From assembly GCA_001897605.1 (NCBI GenBank), contig MKTL01000002.1:270683-302682 (forward strand): DNA of 32,000 bases, read 5' to 3'. The first letter of the stretch is position 1; each line of letters begins with the position of its first letter. This stretch comes from Clostridiales bacterium 38-18. GTDB lineage: Bacteria > Bacillota > Clostridia > Peptostreptococcales > Acidaminobacteraceae. A program made the translations under genes and the position numbers. Under the pieces are notes generated by a model that saw only the letters and a list, made by a program, of their open reading frames with translations, ran no database searches and was not told the origin of the DNA. Below are positions 15,634 through 32,000 of the stretch, one piece after another.

Positions 15634-15643
15634 GTGAGGGCAT

Positions 15644-16840: not shown

Positions 16841-17764
16841 ATGAGTCGTTATTATGGTCTTAGTGACTATTTAAAATTAAGGTATGGACGAAAGCTTGTT
16901 AAACTATCTATCGATGGTGGTTTTACATGCCCAAATAGAGACGGAACCCTTTCTTCAAAGGGTTGCGTCTTTTGTTCGCTTGAAGGGTCAGGTGACTTTG
17001 CTGGAGAGATCAGCTGTGGCGTTAAGAAGGAAAATCAAGATATCCAAACGCAAATCGACTCTCAAAAGGCACTCCTATCTGCTAAATGGACAAACGTTGG
17101 CTTTATCGCTTATTTTCAGAGCTATACCAATACCTACAAGCCCATACAAGAGCTTGAAGCTATTTATAAAAGTGCATTAGCCTGTGAAGGTATTGAGGGA
17201 CTTGCCATCGCCACGCGACCGGATTGCATAGATGCTTCACATATAGAATTGTTTAAGACGATTGATGTGTTATGGGTTGAATTAGGCTTGCAAAGCATTC
17301 ATGATGAAAAGAATGAATGGCTAAATCGTCACTATACACTTGAGGATGTTGAAAAAAGCACAATAATGCTACAAAAGGCAGGAATACCCGTTGTTCTTCA
17401 TTTGATAGCGGGTTTACCAGGAGAAACCTTTGAGGATTTTATGGCATCGATGGATTTTATTACAAGGATAAAGCCATTTGGCGTTAAAATTCATATGCTT
17501 CATATTGTGAAGAACACAGCACTTTCGCAACGCTATCAGGAGACGCCCTTTGAACTGTTGGACGAAGCTACTTATATTAGGTGGGTGTGTGAAGGTATAG
17601 GGCGTCTAGACCCTGAAATTGTTATTCATCGTATGACAGGGGATGGGAAAAGGGCTGAAGTGATAGCACCAACGTGGACATTTAATAAAAGACATGTGCT
17701 GAACGGCATTCAGAAGTATTTAGCTGAAAAGGACATCGTTCAAGGCTGCTATATAAAGAATTGA
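16841..17764 (+). CDS. TIGR01212-family (YhcC-like) radical SAM protein
   Basis: N-terminal GGFTCPNRDGTLSSKGCVFCS is the atypical cluster motif I associate with TIGR01212/YhcC. It is not the HydE Cx3Cx2C. The ATG abuts the hydF stop (TAAATG). Confidence 0.7.
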   Translation: MSRYYGLSDYLKLRYGRKLVKLSIDGGFTCPNRDGTLSSKGCVFCSLEGSGDFAGEISCGVKKENQDIQTQIDSQKALLSAKWTNVGFIAYFQSYTNTYKPIQELEAIYKSALACEGIEGLAIATRPDCIDASHIELFKTIDVLWVELGLQSIHDEKNEWLNRHYTLEDVEKSTIMLQKAGIPVVLHLIAGLPGETFEDFMASMDFITRIKPFGVKIHMLHIVKNTALSQRYQETPFELLDEATYIRWVCEGIGRLDPEIVIHRMTGDGKRAEVIAPTWTFNKRHVLNGIQKYLAEKDIVQGCYIKN

Positions 17765-17903: not shown

Positions 17904-19010
17904 TTAGAAAAGCGTCAGCTTGTTAATTGTAGCAATAACAATGACAAAAATAATCATAGCAAGGGCAATCATCATTGTTAGTATCAACGGCCAATGAAGT
18001 GTGGTATTGCGTTTTCTAAGCTCCATTATATTAAAGCCGAGGCCGACAAAGTCGATTAAAATAGCTATAATGCATAATATCAAGGTAGCCAAAAGATAGT
18101 CTTTACGCCAAAATTGAGGTCGATAAAAGTTAAAAAAATAATCGAGTACATATTTTTTTATTGGCCTAGAAATCATTAAGGTTATAAGGGCAAAAAATAA
18201 CGTCAAGGTACTCATTAAGCCTAAAATTTGCAATCGGCGATATTCTTTTGAGTAAATATCCACAAGATTATCGGATTCATGCTCAAAGTAGTTCGAAATC
18301 TTCTGACTGCTTTCAGGATTTGAGTGAATAATTTCAGATTGTTTTGAATAAAGATATTGTGTGATGAGCTGCGATTGACTTTCCTTTAAACCGATGAATT
18401 GAATTCGATTTAAGTACCGACGAATTTCAACCTGAGCCATTGAGTCAAGTACCCTACATTTTATGGTAAAAATCTTATCCTCTTGATAGTCATAATCAAT
18501 TGCATCCTTTGGTTTTGGGTTGGCGTCAAAAATAATATCAAAGGTTGTGTTTGCTGGCAGCTGTACCGATGAAAGCGCAAGCATTCCTGTAGAGCTTATA
18601 TCCTTTGATACCAGCTGGTAATCTATTCCACGAAACTTAAAATCATAGTTATTAAAAACATTGACTCTAAATGCCTGTCGCCTTTGTACCTTCACGGGCT
18701 CACTGTTAATCATCAAAGTCAAAGAGGAGATACCATTTTCGAAATGACGATCCTTGACAATTGTGTCGATTTCAAATAAGTCTTTTCCCTCTTGCTCAGG
18801 GGCAGAGTAGACGACTGAGAGATGATCTCCAGTGTGAAAATTATAAATTTTACCATGATAGATTGGCGCTATAATCCTAAACTGATTACTGATAACGCCG
18901 CGCTCGATTACGGTTTTAAAACTAATGACATAGGCCTTATTATGTTCATCTCGAGAGGTGACAGATAGTTCAATTGAGTGAGAAGGTAGTAAATATTTTG
19001 TTAGATCCAT
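17904..19010 (-). CDS. PilZ-domain c-di-GMP-binding protein with a C-terminal three-helix membrane anchor
   Basis: PilZ motifs RRQAFR (18666-18683) and DISSTG (18585-18602). Three long hydrophobic segments lie in the last 110 aa or so. Start set at ATG 19010 (MDLTKY), which has GGAGGT upstream; the track start at 19046 lacks an RBS. Confidence 0.8.
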   Translation of the reverse strand: MDLTKYLLPSHSIELSVTSRDEHNKAYVISFKTVIERGVISNQFRIIAPIYHGKIYNFHTGDHLSVVYSAPEQEGKDLFEIDTIVKDRHFENGISSLTLMINSEPVKVQRRQAFRVNVFNNYDFKFRGIDYQLVSKDISSTGMLALSSVQLPANTTFDIIFDANPKPKDAIDYDYQEDKIFTIKCRVLDSMAQVEIRRYLNRIQFIGLKESQSQLITQYLYSKQSEIIHSNPESSQKISNYFEHESDNLVDIYSKEYRRLQILGLMSTLTLFFALITLMISRPIKKYVLDYFFNFYRPQFWRKDYLLATLILCIIAILIDFVGLGFNIMELRKRNTTLHWPLILTMMIALAMIIFVIVIATINKLTLF

Positions 19011-19324
19011 AGGATACCTCCAACAGAATTTATTGTTTATTTTCACACTATATTGGGTATTAAGTCAATATAACAAACCGAAAGGTTGTTGATATAGGGA
19101 GCATCGGGACGTCTTAAAGGACAGTGGTCCTAAGTTTTTTTAATGAGTATTTCCAACGTGTAGCTTTTAAATTTTAGTTTTAACTTTTTTATTTAGGAGG
19201 AATGCTTATAATTACAGAATTTACCGATACAATTGAATATGCTTCACTTCAACGTGCCGAATCCCGTTAAATGGACTTTCATATGTTTTGTGAGAGTCCA
19301 TTTAGTATGTTTAGAGACGAGCAT

Positions 19325-19960
19325 TCACGTACATTTAAAAGATCTTATTTCCTCTTGATCGAGCATATTGATAAATTGCTCTGTCATTCTTGCGGTTAAC
19401 CCCCAAATGGTATAAGCCTCATAATCATAAAAAACAACTGGATAGCGCGCGGCTTTAAAGTTGTAATTTTTACCATCTGGTATGCTTTGATATGGAAAAT
19501 CCTCTGACAAATTAAATACAGAGTTGATAAAGTACGTTTTTGGTGGATGATTGACAAAATAAGATAGTGGAACTGTGAAAATGTGGTCAACTTCATCAGT
19601 GGCATAGCGAATTAGCTCAAAGGGACGTTTAATGATGCCGACATAACAATGGATGATCATATCGAAGCTGGTCATTACGGAATCGATTTGGCCAACGATT
19701 TCAACTTCACTCATTTCGATATTAAGCTCCTCACAGGTTTCTCTTATAGCTGCTTCTCTTGAATGTTCTACATCCTCAATGGCACCTCCTGGAAAGCATA
19801 TTTCGCCTGGCTGAGACTTTAAGGTTAATGCTCTCTTTTCATACAGGAGTTCCCAACAACCGTTTATTTCAATAAGTGGAATCAATACGGAGGATTGCCG
19901 CTTTACACCTGAAGTATTTGGTTTATATCCCTTTATAACATCTATAAGACTATCAATCAT
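19325..19960 (-). CDS. Nudix hydrolase, CoA pyrophosphatase type
   Basis: Nudix box GAIEDVEHSREAAIRETCEELNI, preceded by the CoA-type motif LLYEKRALTLKSQPGEICFPGG. Confidence 0.78.
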   Translation of the reverse strand: MIDSLIDVIKGYKPNTSGVKRQSSVLIPLIEINGCWELLYEKRALTLKSQPGEICFPGGAIEDVEHSREAAIRETCEELNIEMSEVEIVGQIDSVMTSFDMIIHCYVGIIKRPFELIRYATDEVDHIFTVPLSYFVNHPPKTYFINSVFNLSEDFPYQSIPDGKNYNFKAARYPVVFYDYEAYTIWGLTARMTEQFINMLDQEEIRSFKCT

Positions 19961-21479: not shown

Positions 21480-22532
21480 CTAATTCAAGCTATTCGCTCC
21501 ATTTGAGAAGAACTTAAGGTATTGATTATTTTTATCAATATACATAATTGTGTCTTCATCAATTGTATTTTCATAGGACTTAAGCGTACGCCAAAATTCG
21601 TAGAAGTCTGGATCCTTGCTGAAACCACTCGCATAGATTTCCAAAGCAGATGCATCTGCTTCACCACGAACTTTTTCAGATTCTTCAATTGCACTTGCTT
21701 TAATTTGAGCGACATTTCTATCTGTATCTGCAACTGTATTTTGATAGATTTCTAATCCCTCTGATCTGATTTGTTGTGCAATTGCCTCACGCTCTGCAAT
21801 CATCTTTTTATAGGTTGACTCGATGTTTGAAGCTGGTACAATAGTTCTGTAAACATCGATATCGGTCAATTGGATACCCTGTGTTGCCAGATTATTATTG
21901 AGTTCAGCCATTGCTTCTTGAAGAATGGTTTGTAACGCCTCTTTGTTATTTAGAAAATCCAAGCTGCTTAAGCGATTAACTCTGTCAATTATAACTGCGT
22001 ATGCAATTTCATCAATTTTTGAGTTAGCTCGCGTTACAGTTCCAAGTGAAGATCTAAAGATACCTGGATGAGTTATCTCCCATTGCGCGAACATGCTGAT
22101 TTCATATTTGATTTTATCTTTTGTATTAATTTTTGCAGTATTTGAGATATATGTTAATAGTTTACTTGTATCCTTGTCAACTGTTGTAATAAAAGGTGTT
22201 TTAAATTTTAAGCCTTTAGTAGTCACGATTTTGACATCCTTAAATCTAGGATCTAAATCATTTTGCTTTTGAGCATCAGTATTATCGGCATCGACTACGA
22301 TCGCTTTGATTTCGCCGAGTTCTCTCACTGTGGCAACCTCGTCCTCACGAACGATGTAAAAACAGTTTGTTAATACTACAATTGCTGCTATCACTAAAAC
22401 AAAACCAACCACTACTGCAACACTTCTCTTCGCCTGTGATTTAACATCTTTGAATTTATCTCTAGCTTGAGAAAATTCATCTCTAATGGTTTCCTGAGAA
22501 TCTTGTTTTTGTTCCCCTTGATTGATATTCAT
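21480..22532 (-). CDS. hflC: SPFH/band-7 membrane protein, HflC-like
   Basis: Charged N-terminus, one TM helix (VAVVVGFVLVIAAIVVL), then an SPFH core and a coiled-coil tail. Its start shares one nucleotide with the stop of the upstream paralogue (TAATG). Confidence 0.7.
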   Translation of the reverse strand: MNINQGEQKQDSQETIRDEFSQARDKFKDVKSQAKRSVAVVVGFVLVIAAIVVLTNCFYIVREDEVATVRELGEIKAIVVDADNTDAQKQNDLDPRFKDVKIVTTKGLKFKTPFITTVDKDTSKLLTYISNTAKINTKDKIKYEISMFAQWEITHPGIFRSSLGTVTRANSKIDEIAYAVIIDRVNRLSSLDFLNNKEALQTILQEAMAELNNNLATQGIQLTDIDVYRTIVPASNIESTYKKMIAEREAIAQQIRSEGLEIYQNTVADTDRNVAQIKASAIEESEKVRGEADASALEIYASGFSKDPDFYEFWRTLKSYENTIDEDTIMYIDKNNQYLKFFSNGANSLN

Positions 22533-23697: not shown

Positions 23698-24549
23698 ATG
23701 ATGTCAATAAAAGCGAATGAACGAATGCTCGGATATTATATTAGGAGAATAGGTGAGCGGTATAAGGCGCATCATATTACAGCGTTTGCTGGTCAGATGG
23801 CGTACTTCTTTGTCTTGTCATTTTTTCCTTTGCTAATATTCTTAATTTCTGTTATTTCTAAGCTTAACATTAACTACGATTTCGCTTTAGATATTCTTCA
23901 AAGATATATTCCGAGTAATATTAGTAAAATGATAACTGATTTTATCGGTCAAACGATAATGACTGAAGGCCTAACGGTTCTTTCAATTTCAGGAATTACG
24001 ATGCTTTATTCTGCTTCTCGTGCCATCAGTGCGTTGCAACGATCAATAAATATGTCCTATGATGTGAGTGAAACGCGAAATTTTATTTTAGTTAAGTTAA
24101 TGGGGATGTTCTATACCTTAATGTTTATACTGATTATAGTACTCTCATTACTTGTTCCTTCTGTTTTTCAAGGCATATATGATTTTATTAACTCATATAT
24201 TAAGTTCAGTATAGATGATTATTGGCTTGATTTCGCCCATTTATTGCGGAATCTACTTCTATTCATTAGCTTTATTTTTGTCTTTCTTTCAATTTATTTG
24301 TTCCTCCCAAACAAAAAAGTACACCTGTCAGAAATACTGCCAGGTGCTGGGTTTGCTGTTATTGGATCTTTGGCAACCAATTATATTTTTACGAGAATCG
24401 TAACCAAGCTAACCGATTATTCTATCGTATACGGTTCCTTGTCAGCAATAGTAGCTTTCATGGTTTGGGTTTATTTCATGGCCTTAATCATTATACTCGG
24501 CGCCGAAATTAACGCGATAACCTCTAATTTTAAGCACGATAATCGATAA
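23698..24549 (+). CDS. YihY/BrkB (virulence factor BrkB / former RNase BN) family membrane protein
   Basis: 283 aa with about 6 hydrophobic helices. N-terminal AFAGQMAYFFVLSFFPLL and C-terminal WVYFMALIIILGAEINA are characteristic blocks of this family. Confidence 0.8.
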   Translation: MMSIKANERMLGYYIRRIGERYKAHHITAFAGQMAYFFVLSFFPLLIFLISVISKLNINYDFALDILQRYIPSNISKMITDFIGQTIMTEGLTVLSISGITMLYSASRAISALQRSINMSYDVSETRNFILVKLMGMFYTLMFILIIVLSLLVPSVFQGIYDFINSYIKFSIDDYWLDFAHLLRNLLLFISFIFVFLSIYLFLPNKKVHLSEILPGAGFAVIGSLATNYIFTRIVTKLTDYSIVYGSLSAIVAFMVWVYFMALIIILGAEINAITSNFKHDNR

Positions 24550-25147
24550 TGCTTCCTTCAATTCGATCATTTGATAGGATACTTTGAATTTTCAGATATA
24601 CCCTAGACTGTAATTCCATAAATCCGTCTGGGAGTCTAAATAGAAACTTAAATTTTTCTGGTGACTCACAGAGTGTTTTAAAAAAGAGTGGTCGATTGAG
24701 CTTAAATTGATAGAGAGTGTGAGTTAATCCAATAGAATTTAATTCTTCCTCAAAATCATTTGTGATGCTTTCTACTAGAAAGGTGAAATGCGTGCCATAC
24801 ATGCGGTCACATTGACGCGCCTTATCAAATAGTAAATGAATTGCTTCAATAAGGTCTAATGCTCCAGAGATAACTTCTTCTTCGTGCTGTTTGTAATAGC
24901 TCTCCATGGCTTGATCTTCGCGACTGTGCTCAGAAAGTCTTATAAAAGAAGCTTTAAGGTTATGCGCATTGGAATAAAATAGATCCATAATAAAGCGCTC
25001 ATTTCCTGAACGATGATCAGGAGTATTATGGACTTCACCTTTTCCGTAGACGTGTGTTACGGTTTGTGATTTCTGTGTACTTTTAACATTGCTCACTGGA
25101 ACTTTACTATAATTAGTAACAGCTGGACTTTTTGTTATATTAGCCAT
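24530..25147 (-). CDS. hypothetical protein (205 aa), no recognisable motif
   Basis: Strong RBS AAAGGAGGGAG upstream of the ATG. The N-terminal 50 aa are low-complexity and rich in S, T, K and V. The remainder looks helical. Divergent from the 1,633-aa gene. The 3' end overlaps the yihY-family gene by 20 nt. Confidence 0.55.
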   Translation of the reverse strand: MANITKSPAVTNYSKVPVSNVKSTQKSQTVTHVYGKGEVHNTPDHRSGNERFIMDLFYSNAHNLKASFIRLSEHSREDQAMESYYKQHEEEVISGALDLIEAIHLLFDKARQCDRMYGTHFTFLVESITNDFEEELNSIGLTHTLYQFKLNRPLFFKTLCESPEKFKFLFRLPDGFMELQSRVYLKIQSILSNDRIEGSIIDYRA

Positions 25148-25204
25148 AGTACTCCCTCCTTTCGATTTCTAATATATTTATCGGCGTATCTTTGGTTTTG
25201 TATT

Positions 25205-25218
25205 AGCATTGCAATGCT
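25205..25218. promoter_or_regulatory. perfect 14-bp palindrome, candidate operator
   Basis: AGCATTGCAATGCT is its own reverse complement. It lies in the divergent promoter region, about 60 bp upstream of the -10 of the large gene. Confidence 0.35.
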
Positions 25219-25276
25219 TTTGTAATAAATTCAATCTATGCTGCTGTTAAATAGAAGCTTCAACAACACTTGGATA

Positions 25277-25285
25277 TGTTATAAT
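25277..25285 (+). promoter_or_regulatory. extended -10 promoter of the large-gene operon
   Basis: TGTTATAAT (TG at 25277-25278, TATAAT at 25280-25285). No good -35. About 30 nt upstream of the start codon. Confidence 0.5.
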
Positions 25286-25316
25286 ATTTGTAAGACAATT
25301 TACGAGAGGTGTTGTG

Positions 25317-28300
25317 ATGATCAATCGTATTCAAGCAATAACTGTTGAGCTAGAAAAAGAGCTACTCAACCGATCATTTTTAAAGAATTTTGGAATTACA
25401 CGTAAGCTAATTATAGATTTAACAAGTGATGACCGATTTAAAGAGCAACTTAAAAGCATGATGGATAATAATATATATTCCTGTCAGGCTGTTTTCGAGT
25501 TGCTTTTACCATTTTTTGAGTCCTATTCAGTTCAAATGAATCAAGAGGAATGGTTAAATTACTTTTATCAGTACGCACTTCATTTTTCTTTCCCTAAAGC
25601 AATTACTGCTACACTTACAGTTGCCAAAAATAAAGCGTCCGAGATTTATTTACGTACCCTGAAGATCGTGGCTCAATGGCAAATGCATTCGAAGGATGAA
25701 ACTTGGCAAAGTCAATATCCACTTGAGCTATTGTCAGATAAAGAAATCGATGCACTAGAAGATAAAACAGAGTATTTAGCATTTAAAAGAGCTTATCAGC
25801 ATCTTTATGTCTACGAAATGATGAAGCTCAATCAAGAGGTGATTGGCTTTACGACACTTGATCATATATGTGGCGTCAATCACTTGGCGATGAAAACAGC
25901 GAGACAATTGAAGGCAGCAGGTTTTCCTATTGACCTGGGCAGAGTTTCTGGTGCTGCTATTGGTCATGATGTTGGTAAATTCGGCTGTAAGCCAGATGAG
26001 ATGAAAAGGGTAGCCTATTACCATTATTTCTATACTGGTGAGTGGTTCGAAAATCAAGGTATCGTCTATATTCGTAATGTTGCAATTAATCATTCTACAT
26101 GGGATTTAGAATTAGATGCATTGCCAATTGAATCTTTAATTCTCATTCACAGCGATTTTAGGGTTAAAGCTGAAAGAGTGGCTAATAAATCGTTAATGCG
26201 ATTTTATAATTTACAGGATTCATTCGATGTAATTCTGGATAAGCTGGATAACGTAGATGCTGCAAAGGAAAATCGATATCGAAAAGTATATGCGAAGTTG
26301 AGAGACTTTGAAGCCTTTTTGCAGGATTTAGGAATTAAGACTGAACCGAATGAAGCTTATGATTTGACCGTTCAGTATACGCCGACGACTCAACGTAAAT
26401 ACTTTACTCTGATGCAGGGAGAAGAAATTACTAAGAATGTCATATTTTCTTCAATAGATCATAATATTGAATTATTGTATCGACTTAGAGATGAGGCATC
26501 TCTTAATAAAATGCTTGAACCCGTTCGAAATAGTAGAGATTTGACCAGTCTAAGAGGTTATATCGCTATTATGGAGGAGTATTATACCTATTTGACACAA
26601 AAGCAAAAACAAATAATGCTTAGTTTCTTATATGAAAAACTTGTTTTACCTGAAGAGGATATTCGCAAGCAATGCGCTGAATTAATAGGAACAATTATAG
26701 CCTCCTTTGATGAAGAAATTAGAAAGGAAACCCCGCCAAGTGCGGATCAAGAAGCAAAGGTATTAGATACGATTGAACTTTTAAAAATCTATATTGACAA
26801 GTTTTTAAATCCTGAAAATAAAATCATAGATCGACATAAGAAATTTATCAGCTACAGTATGAGAGATATGTTAGATGCTTATTTTAAGCATCTCGTAGGA
26901 ACAGAAAAACGCGTAAAAAGCTTCGAAGTAACTGTGAATTTCTTCACACAGTACAGTGAGCACGAGCAAATCCGATTCTATTTAATTAAATCTGCTAGAA
27001 TTTTACCTTTTTCTGAATTTACACATGAACAGACCTATACGATTTTAAACTTTGTTTCAAATCTTTTAACCAGTCCGGAGTATAAGGTTCGATTGAGAGC
27101 ATATAATTTAATCTACTCAATCCTACCATTATCAAGCAAGACCATTATTGAGCAGGCTAAGGTTGCAAGAGTTCTTGAGACTATAACGACATTAAATGAC
27201 CCAGCAGAAAATTATGCGAGATTAAAGCTAGCTGAGCAGCTTAATCTTGATGAGCCTGTCATAGAACAGTTCAAGGCTATTTGCTTAGACGATTTGCAAT
27301 ACACCAGCAATATATTCCTTAGCAATTTAAAATCAGCGACATTGGATGTGGCTAAGCGTTTTCAAATAGAGCTTTTAATGAGAAACACGCTACTTTATGA
27401 TTATGAAAATTGCTTTTATATGGCAATGCATTTGTGCAACTTACTAAAGGTAAGTGCCTTAGAATCGGTTAGGAACACGGCAGGTAGGATGCTTCTCAAT
27501 TTAATTCCACATTTAAGCTATGAACAGAAGAACGATATCGCTGTAGAGCTAATTCGTGCGCTAGAGATGGAAAGCTATGAGTTCACTAAATACATTCCAC
27601 CTTATCTTGGGAAGATTATTCTTTCCGTTAAACCAAAAGAGCTTGATGAAATCATCGAGAGCTTTGAGAAAAAAATGAGTACGAACAATGAAAAATTAAT
27701 TGCACTTATTGAAAAAACGGTGGGATATGCAATCGCTCAATATGCAGACTATAAATATGCCTTTAAGGAAGAACTAGAGAATCATAATAAACGAGTTCTT
27801 CGATTATTTGGTGTTCTTTTTAATGGCTTTGTGCACGGGTCAAGCTATGTCAATCAGATGGCATTTTCAGTTATAGCTAAGGACATTCTAACGGATAAAA
27901 ATCTAACATTAAGAAAAAAAGAGTACCTTTATCGTATGGTTATAAAAAAAGTGATGTCCTTAATGATTAACACTGACGAAAGTGAGGAGCTGATTTTTTA
28001 CAACAATACGGCCTGCTTAAAATATATTTATAGCTTTATATCTGCTTTTACTCATGAAATCGGTCCAATTTTATTAAAGCCAAATAATAAGATCGCGTTT
28101 TTTCCAGGAGCGTTTGATCCCTTTACTCTTGGACATAAGCAAATTGCCAACGATATTAAAAATTTAGGCTTCGAGGTAACACTTTATGTGGATGAGTTTT
28201 CGTGGTCAAAGCGAACACAGCCGAATCTAATCAGACGCAATATTATCAAAAAGTCTATTGCCAGTGAAATTGATATCTATCAATTCCCAAGAGACATATC

Positions 28301-30215
28301 TATTAATATTGCAAATGAGAAGGACTTGATCATCCTAAAGGACTTGTTTCCGGAATCAGAAATTTACATTGTCGTTGGTTCTGATGTTATTTTGAATGCC
28401 TCTGCATATAAGGGACAATCACCAGGAATTATCAATGAAATTCCACACATTGTTTACGAACGCTTCTATGATCAGGCTCAAGAGGAAATGCATCAAAAAC
28501 TCGATGAGAAGATGAAAAATCTTCATCCAAACTCGTTAAAATTTGCATTACCAAAGGATTATGAACACATTAGTTCAACACTGATTAGGGATTACATCGA
28601 CGAAAAACGAGATATTTCGACTCTGATAGAGCCTCTTGCACAGAATTATATCTATGAGAAGGGCTTGTACCAGCGCGAACCAATGTACAAAAGTATGATG
28701 ACGACCAAGTCGATTTATTTGGAAGTGCTTGAGCAAGTTGAGGATTACCTTTTAGCTGAAATAGCTGAACTTTTTGGGTCGGATGCAGATGAGATGATAT
28801 CGAATTTAGTACGTGTCTCTGAATACCCAAGCTTTAAGCTATATGTTCTCAGAAGTCTTGAAAAAAGTGGTGAAATAGTAGCCATTAGCGTAAGTCATTG
28901 GCTAAGAGCAACTGAGATTCATCATGAGTTTAATGACGAAATGATCATTCGGTATATTAGAACCAATTCGATTGGCAGAATACTGGTGATCGACGGCATC
29001 ATCAAAAGGAAAAATACAGATATAAGAAATACAGAGCAGATTATGCTTACAGAGACTATTGCGCATGCACTCTCAAGGGATTACACCTATTGTATCTATA
29101 AAGAGGCCTTTAAAGGCTCAACGACAAGAGAAATCTATGACGTATTAGAAATTCAGGGATTTATTAACCTAACATCTGCTAAAACCTCAGAGCTTGTACA
29201 TGTGGTCAATATGTCAGCACCTTGTACGCTAAATCTAGATATTCATTCGATGTTCAAAGAGCCCTATAGAAACACACCAGAGATTTTGACTGCCATGGCA
29301 AAGGCAAGACATAGACTCCAGCTTTCAATGACGCAGCTTTATCCAGGAAATTTAGTATTGAGCTTCGATCGCGCAATGATTTACGAAAACCTAATTAAAA
29401 AGGTATGTGAAGAAAACAATATGCCAACTGTTCCGATCATACCAAAGACGGTAGGTGAAGCAATGTGTGTGCCATTTGGGGCGGTTTTTAAAAGATGGCT
29501 AATTCCAAACACAGTAACTAAAACGCTTCATGCTGAAAAGTATTTTTCTCCGGATCTGATGACGCATCAAATTAAGGAATACCCTTTTTATTTAGATGTT
29601 GAAAATCAAATAAAAATGCTGAAATCCTTTAATCGACCGGTTATTTTAGTGGATGATCTTTTGAACAAGGGCTACAGAGTTAAAGCTTTAGAGCCATATT
29701 TCAAAAAATACGATGTAGAAATTAAGCGCTTTATTGTCGCTATAATGTCAGGACAAGGAAAGGAAATCGCTGAATCTATGGACATTAATGTCGACTCTGC
29801 TTATTTTATCCCCAAAATCAAAGTCTGGTTTTATGAAAGTAAGCTGTATCCATTTATTGACGGTGACGCAGTCTGGCGAGGTGGTATTCCAGAAAGAAAT
29901 TTAATTAATTCAATCAATCTTGTATTACCATATGCATCTGCATCCTATGTAACAGATACCTCCAAGGAGGCAATCTATAATTTATCAGAGACGGCATTAA
30001 CAAATGCAATTGAGATAATGTGTGCAGTTGAAATGGTATACGAGCGACTAAATGATCGTCTGTTGACGATTGATCGACTTGGAGAGGTTTTGAACACGCC
30101 AAGGTATCCAGATAAAGGGAGACATATTTTTTACTCTGATAATATTAAACCTTCAGAGTATATAAAGGATGATTTAGAGCAATTGAAAAAAATGAAGACG
30201 ATCTATATAGGGTGA
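25317..30215 (+). CDS. 1,632/1,633-aa multidomain protein: HD phosphohydrolase, helical region, HxGH/ISSTxxR nucleotidyltransferase, unknown domain, PRTase-like domain
   Basis: Residue numbers count from GTG 25314. HD domain is at about aa 183-283 (DHICGVNH, GHDVGKF with HD at 25965-25970, INHSTWD, IHSDFRV). Aa 290-920 is leucine-, glutamate- and lysine-rich and probably alpha-helical repeats. Cytidylyl/adenylyltransferase-fold motifs are FFPGAFDPFTLGH (aa 929-941) and HISSTLIRDYI (aa 1085-1095). The type I PRTase-like PRPP loop is PVILVDDLLNKGYR (aa 1442-1455, 29637-29678). No Walker A motif is present. ATG 25317 is preferred as the start (GAGAGG 7 nt upstream); GTG 25314 is possible. Confidence 0.8.
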   Translation: MINRIQAITVELEKELLNRSFLKNFGITRKLIIDLTSDDRFKEQLKSMMDNNIYSCQAVFELLLPFFESYSVQMNQEEWLNYFYQYALHFSFPKAITATLTVAKNKASEIYLRTLKIVAQWQMHSKDETWQSQYPLELLSDKEIDALEDKTEYLAFKRAYQHLYVYEMMKLNQEVIGFTTLDHICGVNHLAMKTARQLKAAGFPIDLGRVSGAAIGHDVGKFGCKPDEMKRVAYYHYFYTGEWFENQGIVYIRNVAINHSTWDLELDALPIESLILIHSDFRVKAERVANKSLMRFYNLQDSFDVILDKLDNVDAAKENRYRKVYAKLRDFEAFLQDLGIKTEPNEAYDLTVQYTPTTQRKYFTLMQGEEITKNVIFSSIDHNIELLYRLRDEASLNKMLEPVRNSRDLTSLRGYIAIMEEYYTYLTQKQKQIMLSFLYEKLVLPEEDIRKQCAELIGTIIASFDEEIRKETPPSADQEAKVLDTIELLKIYIDKFLNPENKIIDRHKKFISYSMRDMLDAYFKHLVGTEKRVKSFEVTVNFFTQYSEHEQIRFYLIKSARILPFSEFTHEQTYTILNFVSNLLTSPEYKVRLRAYNLIYSILPLSSKTIIEQAKVARVLETITTLNDPAENYARLKLAEQLNLDEPVIEQFKAICLDDLQYTSNIFLSNLKSATLDVAKRFQIELLMRNTLLYDYENCFYMAMHLCNLLKVSALESVRNTAGRMLLNLIPHLSYEQKNDIAVELIRALEMESYEFTKYIPPYLGKIILSVKPKELDEIIESFEKKMSTNNEKLIALIEKTVGYAIAQYADYKYAFKEELENHNKRVLRLFGVLFNGFVHGSSYVNQMAFSVIAKDILTDKNLTLRKKEYLYRMVIKKVMSLMINTDESEELIFYNNTACLKYIYSFISAFTHEIGPILLKPNNKIAFFPGAFDPFTLGHKQIANDIKNLGFEVTLYVDEFSWSKRTQPNLIRRNIIKKSIASEIDIYQFPRDISINIANEKDLIILKDLFPESEIYIVVGSDVILNASAYKGQSPGIINEIPHIVYERFYDQAQEEMHQKLDEKMKNLHPNSLKFALPKDYEHISSTLIRDYIDEKRDISTLIEPLAQNYIYEKGLYQREPMYKSMMTTKSIYLEVLEQVEDYLLAEIAELFGSDADEMISNLVRVSEYPSFKLYVLRSLEKSGEIVAISVSHWLRATEIHHEFNDEMIIRYIRTNSIGRILVIDGIIKRKNTDIRNTEQIMLTETIAHALSRDYTYCIYKEAFKGSTTREIYDVLEIQGFINLTSAKTSELVHVVNMSAPCTLNLDIHSMFKEPYRNTPEILTAMAKARHRLQLSMTQLYPGNLVLSFDRAMIYENLIKKVCEENNMPTVPIIPKTVGEAMCVPFGAVFKRWLIPNTVTKTLHAEKYFSPDLMTHQIKEYPFYLDVENQIKMLKSFNRPVILVDDLLNKGYRVKALEPYFKKYDVEIKRFIVAIMSGQGKEIAESMDINVDSAYFIPKIKVWFYESKLYPFIDGDAVWRGGIPERNLINSINLVLPYASASYVTDTSKEAIYNLSETALTNAIEIMCAVEMVYERLNDRLLTIDRLGEVLNTPRYPDKGRHIFYSDNIKPSEYIKDDLEQLKKMKTIYIG

Positions 30216-30220
30216 GGTTT

Positions 30221-31459
30221 ATGAAGACATATTTTTATAACATCTGGGAAATTTTATCAAATGAAACTTTGGATTTTTTTGAAGACACAAAAGAAATAGA
30301 CAGTAGAGAACAAGTGAATACCACCAGTAAAATAATCGTATTCAAAGGCGAAAAAAGAAAAACTAAAAAATTGACTGAGATGGCAATTGAAGATCTAGAG
30401 AGTGACTTAACAGAATCTATCGAGAAATTATACAAACAAGATGCAGAACTTTACCCTGCTATAAATATTGATTATTTCGATCAGGATAGATTAGAGGAGG
30501 AGCTTTGTCAGTTTTTGGATTTTATAGCGAATGGGCGCTATGCGTTTAGTAAGAAAAGGGTACATTTACTAGCTTTGGGAGATGTTGGCGGGCAGCTTGC
30601 AACTGGACTAAAGCTATTGGGTGGTGATGTCATTCATACATTAGGCATATACGATATTAACCCGAATGTTATCAAGCGATATGAGATTGAGCTTAATCAG
30701 ATTGCGATCAATCCTGAACTAAAGGTGACGGGTATAAAGGAAACAGAATTATTTGATGCAGATGTTTTTCTGTTTTGTGCCTCGAAATATGTACCAAAGG
30801 TAGGAGAGGCAGTAAGCGATGTTAGAATGGCACAATTTGAAGATAATTCTAAACTGGTAGCACATTTTGCGAAAATTGCCAGAGAAAGGTCATATAAGGG
30901 GATTTTCGGTGTCGTATCTGATCCAGTTGATTTATTATGTCTTTCTGCTTATCATAGTTCAAATTTAAATGATGAAGGTATTTACGATTATAGAGGCTTG
31001 CTACCGGAGCAGGTGGTTGGATTTGGACTAGGTGTAATGGATGCACGTGCTAAATACTATAGTGACCTTTTGAGCTATCAATATCCGGTTGTGGGACGGG
31101 CGTATGGACCCCATGGCAAGGATTTGGTTATTGTTGAAAATGTTGAATGTGAGGCAATAGAAAGGTCTATCGCACTAACTGAGAGAGTAATTACTGCAAA
31201 CCTTGAAATGAGGGCATTAGGATTTAAACCTTTTATTGCGCCAGCACTATCATCAGGTGCAATTTCAATTGTTAGAATGTTAGCTGGAGAATATCATTAT
31301 AGTGCGAACTACTTAAATGGTATTTATTGGGGTGCACTCAATAGAAGAAAAGGCCATTTGATAGATTTTGAGAAATTACATTTACCAAATAAAGAGTACG
31401 AACGTGTCAAATCTGCATATGATAAGTTGGAGGCTCTATGGAATTCATTGATGTCATAA
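30221..31459 (+). CDS. LDH/MDH-family 2-hydroxyacid dehydrogenase-like protein with a 115-aa N-terminal extension
   Basis: Residue numbers count from GTG 30212. Rossmann LLALGDVGGQLATGL...LGIYDIN. LDH-equivalent residues are R205 (SDVRMAQF), VVSDPVDLL, D278-x-R280 (MDARAKYY) and catalytic H301 (YGPHGKD, CAT at 31112-31114). The start is either ATG 30221 (GGTGAGG just upstream) or GTG 30212, which overlaps the upstream stop. Confidence 0.7.
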   Translation: MKTYFYNIWEILSNETLDFFEDTKEIDSREQVNTTSKIIVFKGEKRKTKKLTEMAIEDLESDLTESIEKLYKQDAELYPAINIDYFDQDRLEEELCQFLDFIANGRYAFSKKRVHLLALGDVGGQLATGLKLLGGDVIHTLGIYDINPNVIKRYEIELNQIAINPELKVTGIKETELFDADVFLFCASKYVPKVGEAVSDVRMAQFEDNSKLVAHFAKIARERSYKGIFGVVSDPVDLLCLSAYHSSNLNDEGIYDYRGLLPEQVVGFGLGVMDARAKYYSDLLSYQYPVVGRAYGPHGKDLVIVENVECEAIERSIALTERVITANLEMRALGFKPFIAPALSSGAISIVRMLAGEYHYSANYLNGIYWGALNRRKGHLIDFEKLHLPNKEYERVKSAYDKLEALWNSLMS

Positions 31460-32000
31460 GGTTTGAGCGCAAAGATGGAAATACCGATTTCAATTGGATT
31501 GAAAGCCATATAAACGAAATTGTTGATTTAAATGACATTATAATCAAAAAACGAGTACTTTATATTGTTGAACTCGATGAATTAGGTCAATCTGATCGTG
31601 TTAATGCCTATTTAAAGGAGGCAATTTTTCAATATCACAAAAGTGAATTGTTGCCTTTTGAAGGGCAGGTGGCAGCCTTGATTGTACGCTCAGAAAGCGA
31701 GCTTTACACCAAATCGTTTGCTAAGAAGTTTATGTTTCATCTAAATCAGCTTGGTTGTGAGTTTATTGGTCATCCACTAGTCGAGAGAGTAATTGACGGA
31801 AAGAACTTTAGAACGTGGTCTAAAGCAACTGGTGAGCCAATTGAGGTAGTCGAGAAGGAACAGATTTTAAAGCTAATATCAAGATTGGGAAGCTATGAAA
31901 CTATCCGACGATCAAAAATTAAACTGCTGGTATTACATGCGGGCCATAAAGACACTTCCAACACATTAATGTATTGGGAGCGAATTAAAGAAAAGCTAAA
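31438..32000 (+). CDS. partial CDS (5' part, runs off the window), possibly flavodoxin-like / NAD(P)H-dependent FMN-reductase-like
   Basis: Not in the supplied ORF track because it has no stop. I translated 187 codons with no stop (MEFIDVIRFERKDGNTDF...KIKLLVLHAGHKDTSNTLMYWERIKEKL). The last segment resembles the N-terminal strand and phosphate loop of flavodoxin-fold reductases. GGAGG lies 4 nt upstream. It overlaps the LDH-like gene by 22 nt. Confidence 0.45.
   Translation, partial: MEFIDVIRFERKDGNTDFNWIESHINEIVDLNDIIIKKRVLYIVELDELGQSDRVNAYLKEAIFQYHKSELLPFEGQVAALIVRSESELYTKSFAKKFMFHLNQLGCEFIGHPLVERVIDGKNFRTWSKATGEPIEVVEKEQILKLISRLGSYETIRRSKIKLLVLHAGHKDTSNTLMYWERIKEKL

What the first reader, a model, noticed from the sequence alone, without database searches (positions are those of the whole stretch)
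25205..32000. Uncharacterised operon: giant HD / nucleotidyltransferase / PRTase-like fusion protein coupled to an LDH-like dehydrogenase and a flavodoxin-like gene
Seen in sequence. One uninterrupted 4.9-kb ORF combines an N-terminal HD metal-dependent phosphohydrolase signature (H...HD...H...D, aa 183-283) with about 630 aa of apparently helical repeat sequence. It also carries a HIGH-family nucleotidyltransferase with both hallmark motifs (PGAFDPFTLGH and ISSTLIR). A roughly 200-aa region of unknown fold follows, then a C-terminal module with a type I PRTase-style PRPP loop. Its stop overlaps or abuts the start of an LDH/MDH-fold gene, and that gene overlaps by 22 nt the start of a third gene ending in a flavodoxin-like strand-loop. 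The three are therefore almost certainly co-translated. A TGnTATAAT promoter and a perfect 14-bp palindrome lie upstream. Inference. PRTase, adenylyl/cytidylyltransferase and phosphohydrolase chemistries together are what is needed to build a mononucleotide from a base plus PRPP, nucleotidylate it to a dinucleotide, and hydrolyse or trim it. The two redox partners downstream suggest a pyridine- or flavin-like cofactor or signal-molecule pathway, or a self-contained NAD-like salvage or homeostasis module. I do not recognise this architecture as any characterised enzyme or system. There is no Walker A motif, so it is not a STAND or AAA-type protein.
Basis: partly seen in the sequence, partly recalled or inferred. 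Interest (0 to 1): 0.85.

Follow-up and report, generated by a model that had tools for sequence, protein, structure and literature searches.

The report
Uncharacterised giant nucleotide-enzyme operon of Clostridia
A 1,632-residue five-domain protein (metal phosphohydrolase, helical scaffold, NAD-synthesis-like adenylyltransferase, acetyltransferase-like fold, phosphoribosyltransferase-like fold) is kept next to a lactate-dehydrogenase-like gene and an iron-sulfur flavoprotein gene across the Clostridia, and I found no report that any member has been studied.

Summary
One ORF (25317-30215) encodes a 1,632-aa protein. An LDH/MDH-like gene follows 5 nt later (30221-31459). An FMN_red/Isf-like gene overlaps that one by 22 nt (31438 onward, cut by the window end).

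Of 67 related loci with enough downstream sequence, 63 keep both partner genes in the same order. These loci share 38-83% identity. No fourth gene is conserved.

The family is large (more than 6,900 clusters at 90% identity) and almost entirely Clostridia. Databases call it only "cytidyltransferase" or NadD. I found no paper on it.

The NAD-salvage reading is not established. One genome carries the cassette and also a canonical nadD-yqeK operon. The NaMN-pocket residues are not conserved. The HD domain is not YqeK-like. Pyridine PRTases belong to a different (type II) fold class.

A divergent short subfamily lacks the HD domain and is instead coupled to a PPDK_N (dikinase-like) protein.

The 14-bp palindrome is chance. 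The extended -10 promoter is conserved.

Most likely this is a second, specialised nucleotide-conjugate make-and-break machine that docks two redox partners. Its function is unknown.

The parts
25277..25285 (+). Extended -10 promoter element TGTTATAAT of the operon
   Evidence: Read from the sequence. A TGnTAtAAT / TGGGATAAT element lies 30-45 nt upstream of the start codon in 12 of 13 relatives inspected. -10-like 8-mers are the most enriched words in 75 upstream regions. No Rfam match and no Rex box enrichment.
25317..30215 (+). Giant gene, 1,632 aa (an alternative GTG start lies at 25314)
   Evidence: ORF list. Identical to database protein P0001/OJV66058.1. More than 6,900 homologous clusters of about 1,630 aa. 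346 representatives at 50% clustering.
25764..26336 (+). HD-superfamily phosphohydrolase domain (aa ~150-340). Invariant H183, H217-D218, H236, H259, D263, D280.
   Evidence: Pfam HD E 2e-3 on the isolated segment, which is below the gathering score. A divergent homologue, P0265, passes it. NCBIfam: DVU_1551-family HD part, E 3e-4 to 9e-4, and TIGR00295. Invariant columns. All-helical in the model. Not YqeK-like.
26421..28058 (+). ARM/HEAT-type alpha-solenoid (aa ~369-914)
   Evidence: AlphaFold model: pLDDT 89.7, pTM 0.87, helices only. Foldseek against PDB: designed armadillo proteins, SF3b155, karyopherins and CAND1, E 6e-6 to 5e-4. Weak Pfam HEAT hit.
28083..28676 (+). NadD/NMNAT-fold adenylyltransferase domain (aa 923-1120) with PGAFDPFTLGH and ISSTLIR
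   Evidence: Pfam CTP_transf_like 30.3 bits, above the gathering score of 21. TIGR00482 45 bits, far below its cut-off of 112. The top 50 Foldseek PDB hits are all NadD/NMNAT, E ~1e-8, TM 0.65-0.79. End-to-end alignment to B. subtilis and A. noterae NadD at 23-25% identity.
28713..29237 (+). GNAT-like fold without the acetyl-CoA Q/RxxGxG/A loop (aa ~1133-1307)
   Evidence: Beta-alpha order in the model. Foldseek BFVD hits to NAT_SF/GNAT proteins, E 5e-5 to 3e-3, TM 0.5-0.6. No Pfam or NCBIfam hit. No GxG loop in the consensus.
29463..30212 (+). Type I PRTase-like domain plus C-terminal helices (aa ~1383-1632). PRPP-loop-like VILVDDLLNKGYR.
   Evidence: Pfam Pribosyltran E 0.02-0.03 in two homologues, below the gathering score. 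NCBIfam APRT E 2e-4 and archaeal HPT E 1e-3. Foldseek BFVD: PRTase, Hpt, PRPP synthase and UMP synthase, E 1e-3 to 3e-3. hhalign to a bona fide Pribosyltran aligns the PRPP loop only, E 1.5e-3. D1446, D1447, G1452 and R1454 are invariant, and the DD, G and R are also kept in the short subfamily.
30221..31459 (+). LDH/MDH-superfamily dehydrogenase-like gene (412 aa) with an N-terminal extension of about 110 aa
   Evidence: Pfam Ldh_1_N 32.2 bits, above the gathering score of 27. PDB profile hits to L-LDHs, E 3e-10. GxGxxG in the family consensus, with D145 nearly invariant. Invariant R202, R276 and H298 take the places of LDH R109, R171 and H195 (residue roles are established LDH knowledge). 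Present directly downstream in 74 of 81 loci.
31438..32000 (+). Start of the Isf-like flavoprotein gene. Full length is 354 aa: an unknown ~160-aa N-terminal domain plus FMN_red with four invariant Cys. Cut by the window end.
   Evidence: Full gene in L001 16122-17186. Pfam FMN_red E 1e-19. C207, C210, C215 and C224 invariant in 25 sequences. Present in 67 of 81 loci. Identity tracks that of the giant, Spearman 0.74.

Best explanation
The three genes encode one dedicated, Clostridia-wide enzyme assembly. It handles an ADP-linked (dinucleotide-type) metabolite other than bulk NAD.

Shown:
- The giant protein carries a NadD/NMNAT-fold adenylyltransferase. Its ATP-binding motifs are intact, but its acceptor pocket is remodelled.
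- It carries an HD metal phosphohydrolase with a full set of invariant H/D ligands.
- It carries a PRTase-like domain that keeps the acidic pair of the PRPP loop, a degenerate GNAT fold, and a 550-aa ARM/HEAT solenoid.
- It is co-inherited with an NAD-type 2-hydroxyacid-dehydrogenase-like protein that keeps its catalytic Arg/Arg/His, and with an FMN plus four-cysteine (Isf-like) flavoprotein.

Inferred mechanism:
1. The PRTase-like domain makes, or binds, a ribose-5-phosphate-bearing precursor.
2. The NadD-like domain transfers AMP from ATP onto that precursor's phosphate, giving an ADP-linked conjugate.
3. The HD domain hydrolyses the conjugate or its by-products, for turnover or proofreading. 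The NadD-YqeK pair does this for NAD precursors.
4. The solenoid docks the two redox proteins through their family-specific N-terminal extensions. Those proteins either carry out a 2-oxo/2-hydroxy-acid redox step on the same molecule or use it as their cofactor.
For: Domain assignments.

Catalytic motifs are invariant in 11 to 55 homologues that share as little as 40% identity.

Cassette conservation:
- 63 of 67 informative loci keep both partners, in the same order and strand. Gene gaps are mostly -65 to +30 nt.
- No fourth gene is conserved.
- The flavoprotein's divergence tracks the giant's, Spearman 0.74.

The giant is not the housekeeping enzyme. A canonical nadD-yqeK operon co-exists in A. 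noterae.

The core (half solenoid, NadD-like, GNAT-like, PRTase-like) recurs in a short subfamily with a different accessory enzyme, a PPDK_N protein. In one such genome an orthologous LDH-like/Isf-like pair lies 3.3 kb away, and that LDH-like protein lacks the N-terminal extension.

There is a precedent for an HD hydrolase that edits NadD products (PMC9426524).

The cassette looks chromosomal and native. GC content is uniform. There is no phage hit, no match in a true plasmid, and no PADLOC hit.
Against: No activity has been measured for any member, and the substrate is unknown.

HD and PRTase membership rest on sub-threshold profile scores, conserved motifs and weak fold matches.

The phosphate-binding half of the PRPP loop (usually small residues such as TGGT) is NKGYR here, so the domain may bind rather than catalyse.

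The GNAT-like fold lacks the acyl-CoA loop, and this scheme gives it no role.

Physical association of the three proteins is inferred only from gene order and from the extra N-terminal segments.

Three loci (L017, L025, L040) have the giant without either partner within 8 kb, and one (L053) has only the LDH-like gene.
Confidence: 0.35

Rival explanations
1. This is an NAD(-like) salvage or homeostasis module. The PRTase domain makes NMN or NaMN from a pyridine base plus PRPP. The NadD-like domain makes NAD or NaAD. The HD domain trims or proofreads. The LDH-like and flavoprotein partners couple the module to the redox state.
For: The nearest family of the transferase domain, by both sequence and fold, is NadD/NMNAT. 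HD+NadD fusions and NMNAT+hydrolase fusions are known in NAD metabolism. The LDH-like partner has an NAD-type Rossmann motif.
Against: A canonical nadD-yqeK operon co-exists with the cassette in A. noterae. NadD scores are far below the family cut-offs, 45 versus 112 bits. The NaMN-contacting motifs are replaced. Known pyridine PRTases are type II, whereas this domain resembles type I purine/pyrimidine enzymes (the fold classes are established knowledge). No NiaR/NrtR/Rex-type operator or riboswitch lies upstream.
Confidence: 0.2
2. This is a sensor and regulator rather than a biosynthetic enzyme. The PRTase-like and GNAT-like folds act as ligand sensors, in the way PurR and PyrR use a PRTase fold. 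The NadD-like and HD domains act as writer and eraser of an adenylyl mark or of a small signal nucleotide, by the logic of GlnD or RelA/SpoT. The solenoid holds the LDH-like and Isf-like proteins as regulated clients.
For: The layout of transferase, HD hydrolase and small-molecule-binding domains parallels GlnD and RSH enzymes (established knowledge). The PRPP loop is atypical and the GNAT fold is degenerate. A large ARM/HEAT platform is typical of protein binding. The partner proteins carry unique extra N-terminal segments.
Against: HIGH-type transferases are not known to modify proteins. The catalytic residues of the LDH-like partner are conserved, as in a working enzyme. There is no output domain and no conserved regulatory neighbour.
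Confidence: 0.2
3. This is a nucleotide-activated 2-hydroxy/enol-acid pathway, analogous to the lactyl or enolpyruvyl tail chemistry of coenzyme F420 or of UDP-MurNAc. A phospho-2-hydroxyacid or PEP-like donor is adenylylated by the NadD-like domain. The LDH-like enzyme and the flavoprotein interconvert the oxo, enol and hydroxy forms.
For: The short subfamily is always coupled to a PPDK_N (PEP-synthase-type dikinase) protein. The long subfamily is coupled to a 2-hydroxyacid-dehydrogenase-like protein that keeps the carboxylate-binding Arg, and to an FMN reductase-type protein. One genome has both sets within 7 kb. HIGH-type transferases all act on phosphate or carboxylate acceptors (established knowledge).
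Against: This is purely an analogy. The known enzymes for that chemistry (CofC/FbiD, FbiA, FbiB, MurA/B) have other folds. No acceptor-transferase is identified. The scheme gives the PRTase-like and HD domains no role.
Confidence: 0.1
4. This is an anti-phage or conflict system that manipulates NAD or nucleotides.
For: Many defence systems deplete or rebuild NAD, and large multidomain proteins with HD domains are common in defence (established knowledge).
Against: There are no PADLOC hits for any of the three proteins. There are no phage hits, and the only plasmid-collection hit is a 2.63-Mb chromosome-like replicon. Composition is native. Neighbours are housekeeping genes, and synteny follows taxonomy. 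The family has nearly uniform length and high conservation, which suggests mainly vertical descent.
Confidence: 0.02

Closest known systems
NadD-YqeK fusion or operon (Firmicutes, mycoplasmas): NaMN adenylyltransferase plus an HD diphosphatase that proofreads NadD products and hydrolyses Ap4A (PMC9426524; Minazzato 2020, cited there)
   Same: A NadD-fold adenylyltransferase and an HD phosphohydrolase sit in one polypeptide, giving a make-and-break logic.
   Different: - Here the HD domain is N-terminal and separated from the transferase by a 550-aa solenoid.
- The HD domain is not of the YqeK family (TIGR00488 E 0.09; hhalign probability 0.3%).
- The NadD-like domain is a distant paralogue at 23-25% identity.
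- A canonical nadD-yqeK operon co-exists in the same genome.
- The GNAT-like domain, the PRTase-like domain and two redox partner genes are additional.
Multidomain NMNATs of NAD salvage: NadR (HTH-NMNAT-RNK), NadM-Nudix, phage NatV (established knowledge)
   Same: An NMNAT-fold domain is fused to a hydrolase or a precursor-supplying activity.
   Different: None of them contains HD, HEAT, GNAT or type I PRTase-like domains. None is linked to LDH-like or Isf-like genes. Pyridine PRTases in those pathways are type II.
GlnD and RelA/SpoT-type bifunctional enzymes (transferase plus HD hydrolase plus ligand-sensing domains)
   Same: One protein holds opposing transferase and HD hydrolase activities together with small-molecule-binding domains.
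   Different: In those enzymes the transferase is of the pol-beta or RSH type, not the HIGH type. Their sensors are ACT/TGS domains. This is a resemblance of logic only, and membership was not tested.
Iron-sulfur flavoprotein Isf (Methanosarcina) within the PF03358 FMN_red family
   Same: The third gene has an FMN_red domain with four invariant cysteines about 45 residues into the domain.
   Different: It has an extra N-terminal domain of about 160 aa with an unknown fold. The cysteine spacing is CX2CX4CX8C. No PDB sequence match was found.
L-lactate, L-2-hydroxyisocaproate and malate dehydrogenases (LDH/MDH superfamily)
   Same: It has the Rossmann domain, and residues equivalent to R109, R171 and H195 are conserved.
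   Different: It scores only 29 bits against the L-LDH equivalog cut-off of 303. The active-site loop is 5 residues longer, with Gly at the position of the specificity residue 102. It has an N-terminal extension of about 110 aa.

Membership tests
NadD/NMNAT (HIGH-type nucleotidyltransferases, PF01467) | (H/T)xGH ATP-binding motif | tested here: met
   The motif is FDPFTLGH here and mostly FDPFSLSH in the family. H940 is invariant. The first position is T or S, as in PPAT.
NadD/NMNAT (HIGH-type nucleotidyltransferases, PF01467) | ISSTxxR second ATP motif, and the overall fold | tested here: met
   ISSTLIR lies at 1085; S1086, S1087 and R1091 are invariant across all 55 aligned homologues and T1088 nearly so. 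The top 50 Foldseek PDB hits are all NadD/NMNAT, TM 0.65-0.79. Pfam gives 30.3 bits, above the gathering score of 21.
NadD equivalog (NaMN adenylyltransferase proper) | Score above the curated NadD cut-offs, and conserved NaMN-binding residues (PPHK, S/TYT.DT, W-Y) | tested here: not met
   TIGR00482 gives 45 bits against a cut-off of 112, and the PRK00071 models give 25-33 bits against 150-197. In the aligned positions only the K of PPHK and a Tyr are kept. A canonical NadD co-exists in A. noterae.
HD superfamily (PF01966) | H...HD...D metal ligands on a helical fold | tested here: met
   H183, H217-D218 and D280 are invariant, as are H236, H259 and D263. The region is helical in the model.
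HD superfamily (PF01966) | Pfam gathering score | tested here: inconclusive
   The window protein scores 14.3-18.8 bits against a gathering score of 22. The divergent homologue P0265 scores 23.9 bits. No fold-search confirmation was possible because the solenoid hits fill the list.
YqeK (COG1713, TIGR00488) Ap4A/NaAD-analogue hydrolase | Family-level sequence similarity | tested here: not met
   TIGR00488 gives E 0.09 and 12.6 bits against a cut-off of 70. hhalign of the HD profile against A. noterae YqeK gives probability 0.3%.
Type I phosphoribosyltransferases (PF00156) | PRPP-binding loop: four hydrophobic residues, two acidic, two hydrophobic, then four small residues | tested here: inconclusive
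   VILV-DD-LL is present and invariant, but it is followed by NKGYR instead of T/S-G-x-T. The DD, G and R are also kept in the short subfamily.
Type I phosphoribosyltransferases (PF00156) | Profile or fold match | tested here: inconclusive
   Pfam gives 13.9-16 bits against a gathering score of 26.3. NCBIfam APRT gives E 2e-4. Foldseek BFVD finds PRTase/Hpt/PRPP-synthase hits at E 1e-3 to 3e-3 with low TM. hhalign covers the PRPP loop only. The PDB profile search finds nothing.
GNAT acyltransferases | GNAT fold | tested here: met
   The strand and helix order in the model fits. Foldseek BFVD finds NAT_SF/GNAT hits at E 5e-5 to 3e-3, TM 0.5-0.6.
GNAT acyltransferases | Acyl-CoA pyrophosphate loop Q/RxxGxG/A after strand 4 | tested here: not met
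   The consensus after GRIxVIDGI has no GxG. No Pfam or NCBIfam acetyltransferase hit appears even at E 10.
LDH/MDH superfamily | NAD-binding domain and catalytic Arg/Arg/His | tested here: met
   Ldh_1_N scores 32.2 bits, above 27. The family consensus has GLGDVGG. D145 is nearly invariant, and R202, R276 and H298 are invariant. The profile aligns to L-LDH structures.
L-lactate dehydrogenase equivalog | Curated cut-off and Gln102-type specificity loop | tested here: not met
   It scores 29.5 bits against a cut-off of 303. The active-site loop is 5 residues longer, with Gly at the position equivalent to residue 102.
Isf-type iron-sulfur flavoprotein (PF03358 plus a Cys cluster) | FMN_red domain and four clustered Cys | tested here: met
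   FMN_red scores 70.9 bits, above 24. C207, C210, C215 and C224 are invariant in 25 sequences. Cluster binding itself is not testable here.
Known anti-phage defence systems (PADLOC) | Match to any defence protein model, or a mobile context | tested here: not met
   There are no PADLOC hits and no phage hits. The only match in the plasmid collection is a chromosome-like replicon.

The most novel reading that the evidence does not exclude
The cassette is the biosynthetic and turnover machine for a nucleotide-linked cofactor or signal molecule of anaerobic Firmicutes that has not yet been described. That molecule would be an ADP-conjugate built from a ribose-phosphate or phospho-2-hydroxy/enol-acid precursor. 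The LDH-like and Isf-like proteins would be its dedicated redox enzymes. The PPDK_N-coupled short form would be a second route to the same or a related molecule.
Probability: 0.3. Interest if true: 0.85.

Novelty: new variant of a known kind. Interest (0 to 1): 0.62.

Why it matters
Clostridia include major gut, environmental and industrial anaerobes. This protein is a 1,630-aa enzyme under strong purifying selection. Databases label it only "cytidyltransferase" or, probably wrongly, NadD.

It combines three nucleotide chemistries with two dedicated redox proteins, and it co-exists with the normal NAD-synthesis genes. This points to an unrecognised branch of nucleotide or cofactor metabolism, or of signalling, in anaerobes.

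At the least, automatic annotation of this family as nicotinate-nucleotide adenylyltransferase should be treated as unsafe. At best, the family leads to a new metabolite.

The finding is directly testable, because the domains suggest concrete substrates and the partners can be co-expressed.

Tried and rejected
1. Palindrome as operator. It is real, but its count is at chance level in the window and it is not conserved in 13 relatives.
2. Riboswitch or known RNA in the leader, or anywhere in the window. Rfam found none.
3. Rex box upstream. It occurs in 2-4 of 75 loci, which is no enrichment. k-mer enrichment recovered only the -10 and RBS words.
4. HD domain as YqeK. Rejected.
5. The giant as the housekeeping NadD. 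Rejected for A. noterae, which has a canonical obg-nadD-yqeK operon. tblastn found no canonical nadD within the 92 stored loci, so other genomes were not tested.
6. Defence system or mobile element. No PADLOC hit, no phage hit, no match in a true plasmid, native GC.
7. A fourth conserved gene. ORF clustering of 81 loci found none. The two-component, MCP and radical-SAM neighbours are sporadic.
8. PDB sequence and profile searches for the HD, PRTase-like and Isf-like parts gave nothing useful.
The GNAT-like and PRTase-like folds surfaced only in the viral (BFVD) library search of the whole C-terminal model.
10. Internal duplication in the Isf-like protein, and Pfam identity for the N-terminal extensions of both partners. 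None found.
The C-terminal 509 aa were used instead.
12. Six literature searches for any description of the architecture found none.

Full report
**What is in the window**

The ORF scan shows an uninterrupted reading frame at 25314/25317-30215 on the + strand. A 415/412-aa ORF ends at 31459, and a third ORF starts at 31438 and runs off the window.

The giant protein is identical to database entry P0001 (OJV66058.1, "hypothetical protein", Clostridiales bacterium 38-18, a Fusibacter relative). The full contig (L001) shows that the third gene is 354 aa and matches PF03358 FMN_red. The next gene is convergent, so the unit has exactly three genes.

The likely start codons are as follows:
- ATG 25317 for the giant, with GAGAGG 7 nt upstream.
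- ATG 30221 for the LDH-like gene. The RBS GGGTGAGG spans the giant's TGA at 30213-30215, and homologues start M-x-Y-Y.
- ATG 31438 for the third gene, which overlaps the LDH-like gene by 22 nt.

GC content is uniform at 34-39% across the window. The surrounding genes are ordinary chromosomal genes: arginase, M17 peptidase, alanine racemase, HydG/HydF, DAHP synthase and Band_7 proteins.

**Domain anatomy of the giant protein**

Only one Pfam family passes its threshold: CTP_transf_like, aa 929-1092, 30 bits. NCBIfam ranks the NadD models first, but far below their cut-offs.

I built two AlphaFold models from 55-sequence alignments. The model of aa 2-925 has pLDDT 89.7, and the model of aa 904-1632 has pLDDT 85.6. 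Together with the profile searches they give the following domains.

- **N-terminal region and solenoid.** This half is entirely helical. Its repeat part (aa ~369-914) matches armadillo/HEAT solenoids at E 6e-6 to 5e-4.
- **NadD-like domain.** The top 50 PDB fold matches of the C-terminal model are all NadD/NMNAT structures, with E ~1e-8 and TM 0.65-0.79.
- **GNAT-like and PRTase-like folds.** In the viral structure library the same model also finds NAT_SF/GNAT proteins (E 5e-5 to 3e-3) and PRTase, Hpt, PRPP-synthase and UMP-synthase proteins (E 1e-3 to 3e-3). It lacks the acyl-CoA Q/RxxGxG/A loop and has no acetyltransferase profile hit.
- **PRTase-like domain in detail.** It gives sub-threshold Pribosyltran and APRT/HPT hits in independent homologues. 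hhalign to a bona fide PRTase covers only the PRPP loop. The hydrophobic and acidic part of that loop (VILVDD) is invariant, but the usual small-residue phosphate loop is replaced by NKGYR.
- **HD domain (aa ~150-340).** It gives Pfam E 2e-3 on the isolated segment, which is below threshold. NCBIfam gives E 3e-4 to 9e-4 to the HD part of the DVU_1551 family. A divergent homologue passes the Pfam HD threshold. H183, H217-D218, H236, H259, D263 and D280 are invariant. This pattern fits a dinuclear HD site, which is an inference. The domain is not YqeK-like.

**The two partner proteins**

- **LDH-like protein.**
  - It passes the Ldh_1_N threshold, and its profile aligns to L-LDH structures at E 3e-10.
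  - The NAD-type glycine motif is present in the family consensus, and the acidic residue after strand 2 is nearly invariant.
  - The equivalents of LDH Arg109, Arg171 and His195 are invariant (R202, R276, H298).
  - The active-site loop is five residues longer than in LDH, with Gly at the specificity position.
  - The protein has an N-terminal extension of about 110 aa with no recognisable family.
  - It looks like a working NAD-dependent 2-hydroxy/2-oxo-acid dehydrogenase of unknown substrate.
- **Third protein.** It has an unassigned N-terminal domain of about 160 aa. This is followed by an FMN_red domain with four invariant cysteines (C207, C210, C215, C224), as in iron-sulfur flavoproteins.

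**Conservation of the family**

The giant protein has more than 6,900 homologous clusters at 90% identity, nearly all about 1,630 aa. The C-terminal 509 aa find 346 representatives at 50% clustering.

The 80 loci kept span Fusibacter, Acidaminobacter, Clostridium, Sedimentibacter, Tissierellia, Alkaliphilus, Caloramator, Tepidibacter, Anaerovorax, Dehalobacterium and others, plus a few Atribacterota and Calditrichales MAGs.

Gene-order results from tblastn and ORF clustering:
- The LDH-like gene lies directly downstream in 74 of 81 loci, and the flavoprotein gene in 67 of 81, in the same order and on the same strand.
- Gaps between the genes are mostly -65 to +30 nt.
- Among the 67 loci with at least 2.6 kb of downstream sequence, 63 have both genes, one has only the LDH-like gene, and three have neither.
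- No other gene is conserved.

Across 61 loci the flavoprotein's identity tracks that of the giant, with Spearman 0.74. The value for the LDH-like gene is 0.27.

Upstream, an extended -10 element is conserved. The 14-bp palindrome is not conserved and is no more frequent than chance. There is no Rfam match and no Rex box.

**Is it the cell's NadD?**

No, at least not in one complete replicon. The only hit in the plasmid collection is a 2.63-Mb Acetoanaerobium noterae replicon. It carries the full cassette (L092) and, 555 kb away, a canonical rplU-rpmA-obg-yhbY-nadD-yqeK-rsfS operon (L093).

The giant's transferase domain is 25% identical to that NadD, end to end (E 8e-9). Its HD profile has no specific relation to that YqeK.

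The NadD residues that hold NaMN are mostly replaced by family-specific invariant residues, SWSKR and NASAY. The acceptor is therefore probably not NaMN. This is an inference.

**A second subfamily**

Among the distant representatives is a short form of 1,090-1,300 aa. It is about 25% identical and aligns to aa 509-1599. It thus has half the solenoid plus the NadD-like, GNAT-like and PRTase-like parts, but no HD domain.

- In each of the four distinct short-form places where the upstream gene is fully on the contig, that gene encodes an 850-900-aa PPDK_N (PEP-synthase/dikinase-type ATP-grasp) protein. The junction between the two genes ranges from a 35-nt overlap to an 11-nt gap.
- One of these genomes also has an LDH-like/Isf-like pair 3.3 kb upstream, 45% and 38% identical to the window's proteins. 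That LDH-like protein lacks the N-terminal extension.
- Another divergent member (P0265) keeps the HD, transferase and PRTase signals. It has no redox partners and sits after hpt-like, pduL-like and deoC genes.

The invariant core is therefore solenoid, NadD-like, GNAT-like and PRTase-like. The accessory chemistry varies between subfamilies.

**Interpretation**

What is shown is a conserved, chromosomal three-gene unit with no mobile or defence context. It has intact catalytic signatures for adenylyl transfer, metal-dependent phosphohydrolysis and NAD-linked 2-hydroxyacid oxidoreduction. It also has an FMN/Fe-S protein and a PRTase-like domain of uncertain competence.

What is inferred is a make-and-break cycle for an ADP-linked conjugate. 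The precursor would be made or bound by the PRTase-like domain, adenylylated by the NadD-like domain, and hydrolysed by the HD domain, with the two redox proteins docked on the solenoid. The published NadD-YqeK proofreading pair is the nearest precedent.

The rivals are:
- a true NAD salvage module;
- a GlnD/RSH-like sensor with writer and eraser activities;
- a nucleotide-activated 2-hydroxy/enol-acid pathway, suggested by the PPDK_N and LDH-like partners;
- a defence system, which is very unlikely.

None of these can be settled without biochemistry.

**Novelty**

I found no paper describing this architecture. Source annotations are generic or borrowed from NadD.

The individual folds and the pairing of NadD with an HD domain are known. 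The following are not described:
- the five-domain arrangement;
- the two dedicated redox partners;
- co-existence with canonical nadD-yqeK;
- the alternative PPDK_N-coupled form.

I rate it a new variant of a known kind. There is a real chance that it marks a new metabolite pathway.

Noticed in passing
L084 3297-9906; L085; L087 3449-9273; L088 3474-9615; L090/L091 7365-13735: A divergent short subfamily of the giant protein (1,090-1,300 aa) has no HD domain. Wherever the upstream gene is fully on the contig, it is an 850-900-aa PPDK_N (dikinase-type) protein immediately adjacent, with the junction ranging from a 35-nt overlap to an 11-nt gap.
   Followed up: partly
L091 2998-5110: An LDH-like gene (336 aa, without the N-terminal extension) and an Isf-like gene (374 aa) lie after a glutamate dehydrogenase gene and 3.3 kb upstream of a PPDK_N plus short-giant pair. 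They are 45% and 38% identical to the window's partner proteins.
   Followed up: partly
window 25175-25186 (minus strand), upstream of the divergent 205-aa gene 24530-25147: The word TATATCGGCA is conserved between the two divergent genes in the Fusibacter-like relatives. On the minus strand it reads GCCGATAA/T, which resembles a sigma-D/sigma-28 -10 element. It would serve the unannotated 205-aa gene, which recurs in 10 loci.
   Followed up: no
L092 and L093 (NZ_CP154629.1, Acetoanaerobium noterae 'plasmid pTPELB2', 2.63 Mb): This record in the plasmid collection carries rplU-rpmA-obg-nadD-yqeK-rsfS and is chromosome-sized. It is probably a chromosome or chromid labelled as a plasmid. Only 4 features are listed in its gene table.
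   Followed up: partly
L083 2903-8845: The divergent 1,324-aa member P0265 keeps the HD, transferase and PRTase signals. It sits at the end of a run of same-strand genes (hpt-like PRTase, PduL-like phosphotransacylase, DeoC aldolase and a 70-aa ORF) and has no LDH-like or FMN_red partner.
   Followed up: no
L023 and L040 (same MAG, JBMOKU01); L014 12767-18133: One MAG has two full-length copies, one with both partner genes and one without. In L014 a 5.4-kb block of five unrelated ORFs separates the giant from its LDH-like gene.
   Followed up: no
L032, L042, L043, L076 (Atribacterota MAGs) and L021 (Calditrichales): Full cassettes at 42-45% identity occur in a few non-Firmicute MAGs (one, L042, is cut at the contig end within the flavoprotein gene). 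This reflects either lateral transfer or binning errors.
   Followed up: no
window 14218-17764: Three adjacent genes: a 471-aa radical SAM + BATS (HydG-type) gene, HydF, and a 307-aa Radical_SAM + Radical_SAM_C gene. These are [FeFe]-hydrogenase maturation genes. A protein with the same two radical-SAM Pfam domains directly follows a distant giant homologue (P0259) in L086, but the link is not general (5 loci).
   Followed up: partly
window 11596-13698 and 17904-19046: A TPR-GAF-GGDEF diguanylate cyclase and a PilZ-domain protein lie upstream. A NUDIX hydrolase gene lies at 19325-19960. None of these is conserved next to the cassette outside close relatives.
   Followed up: partly
window 21646-21659: The only other perfect 14-bp palindrome in the window (GCAGATGCATCTGC) lies inside the Band_7 gene 21480-22532. 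The count of such palindromes is at chance level.
   Followed up: yes
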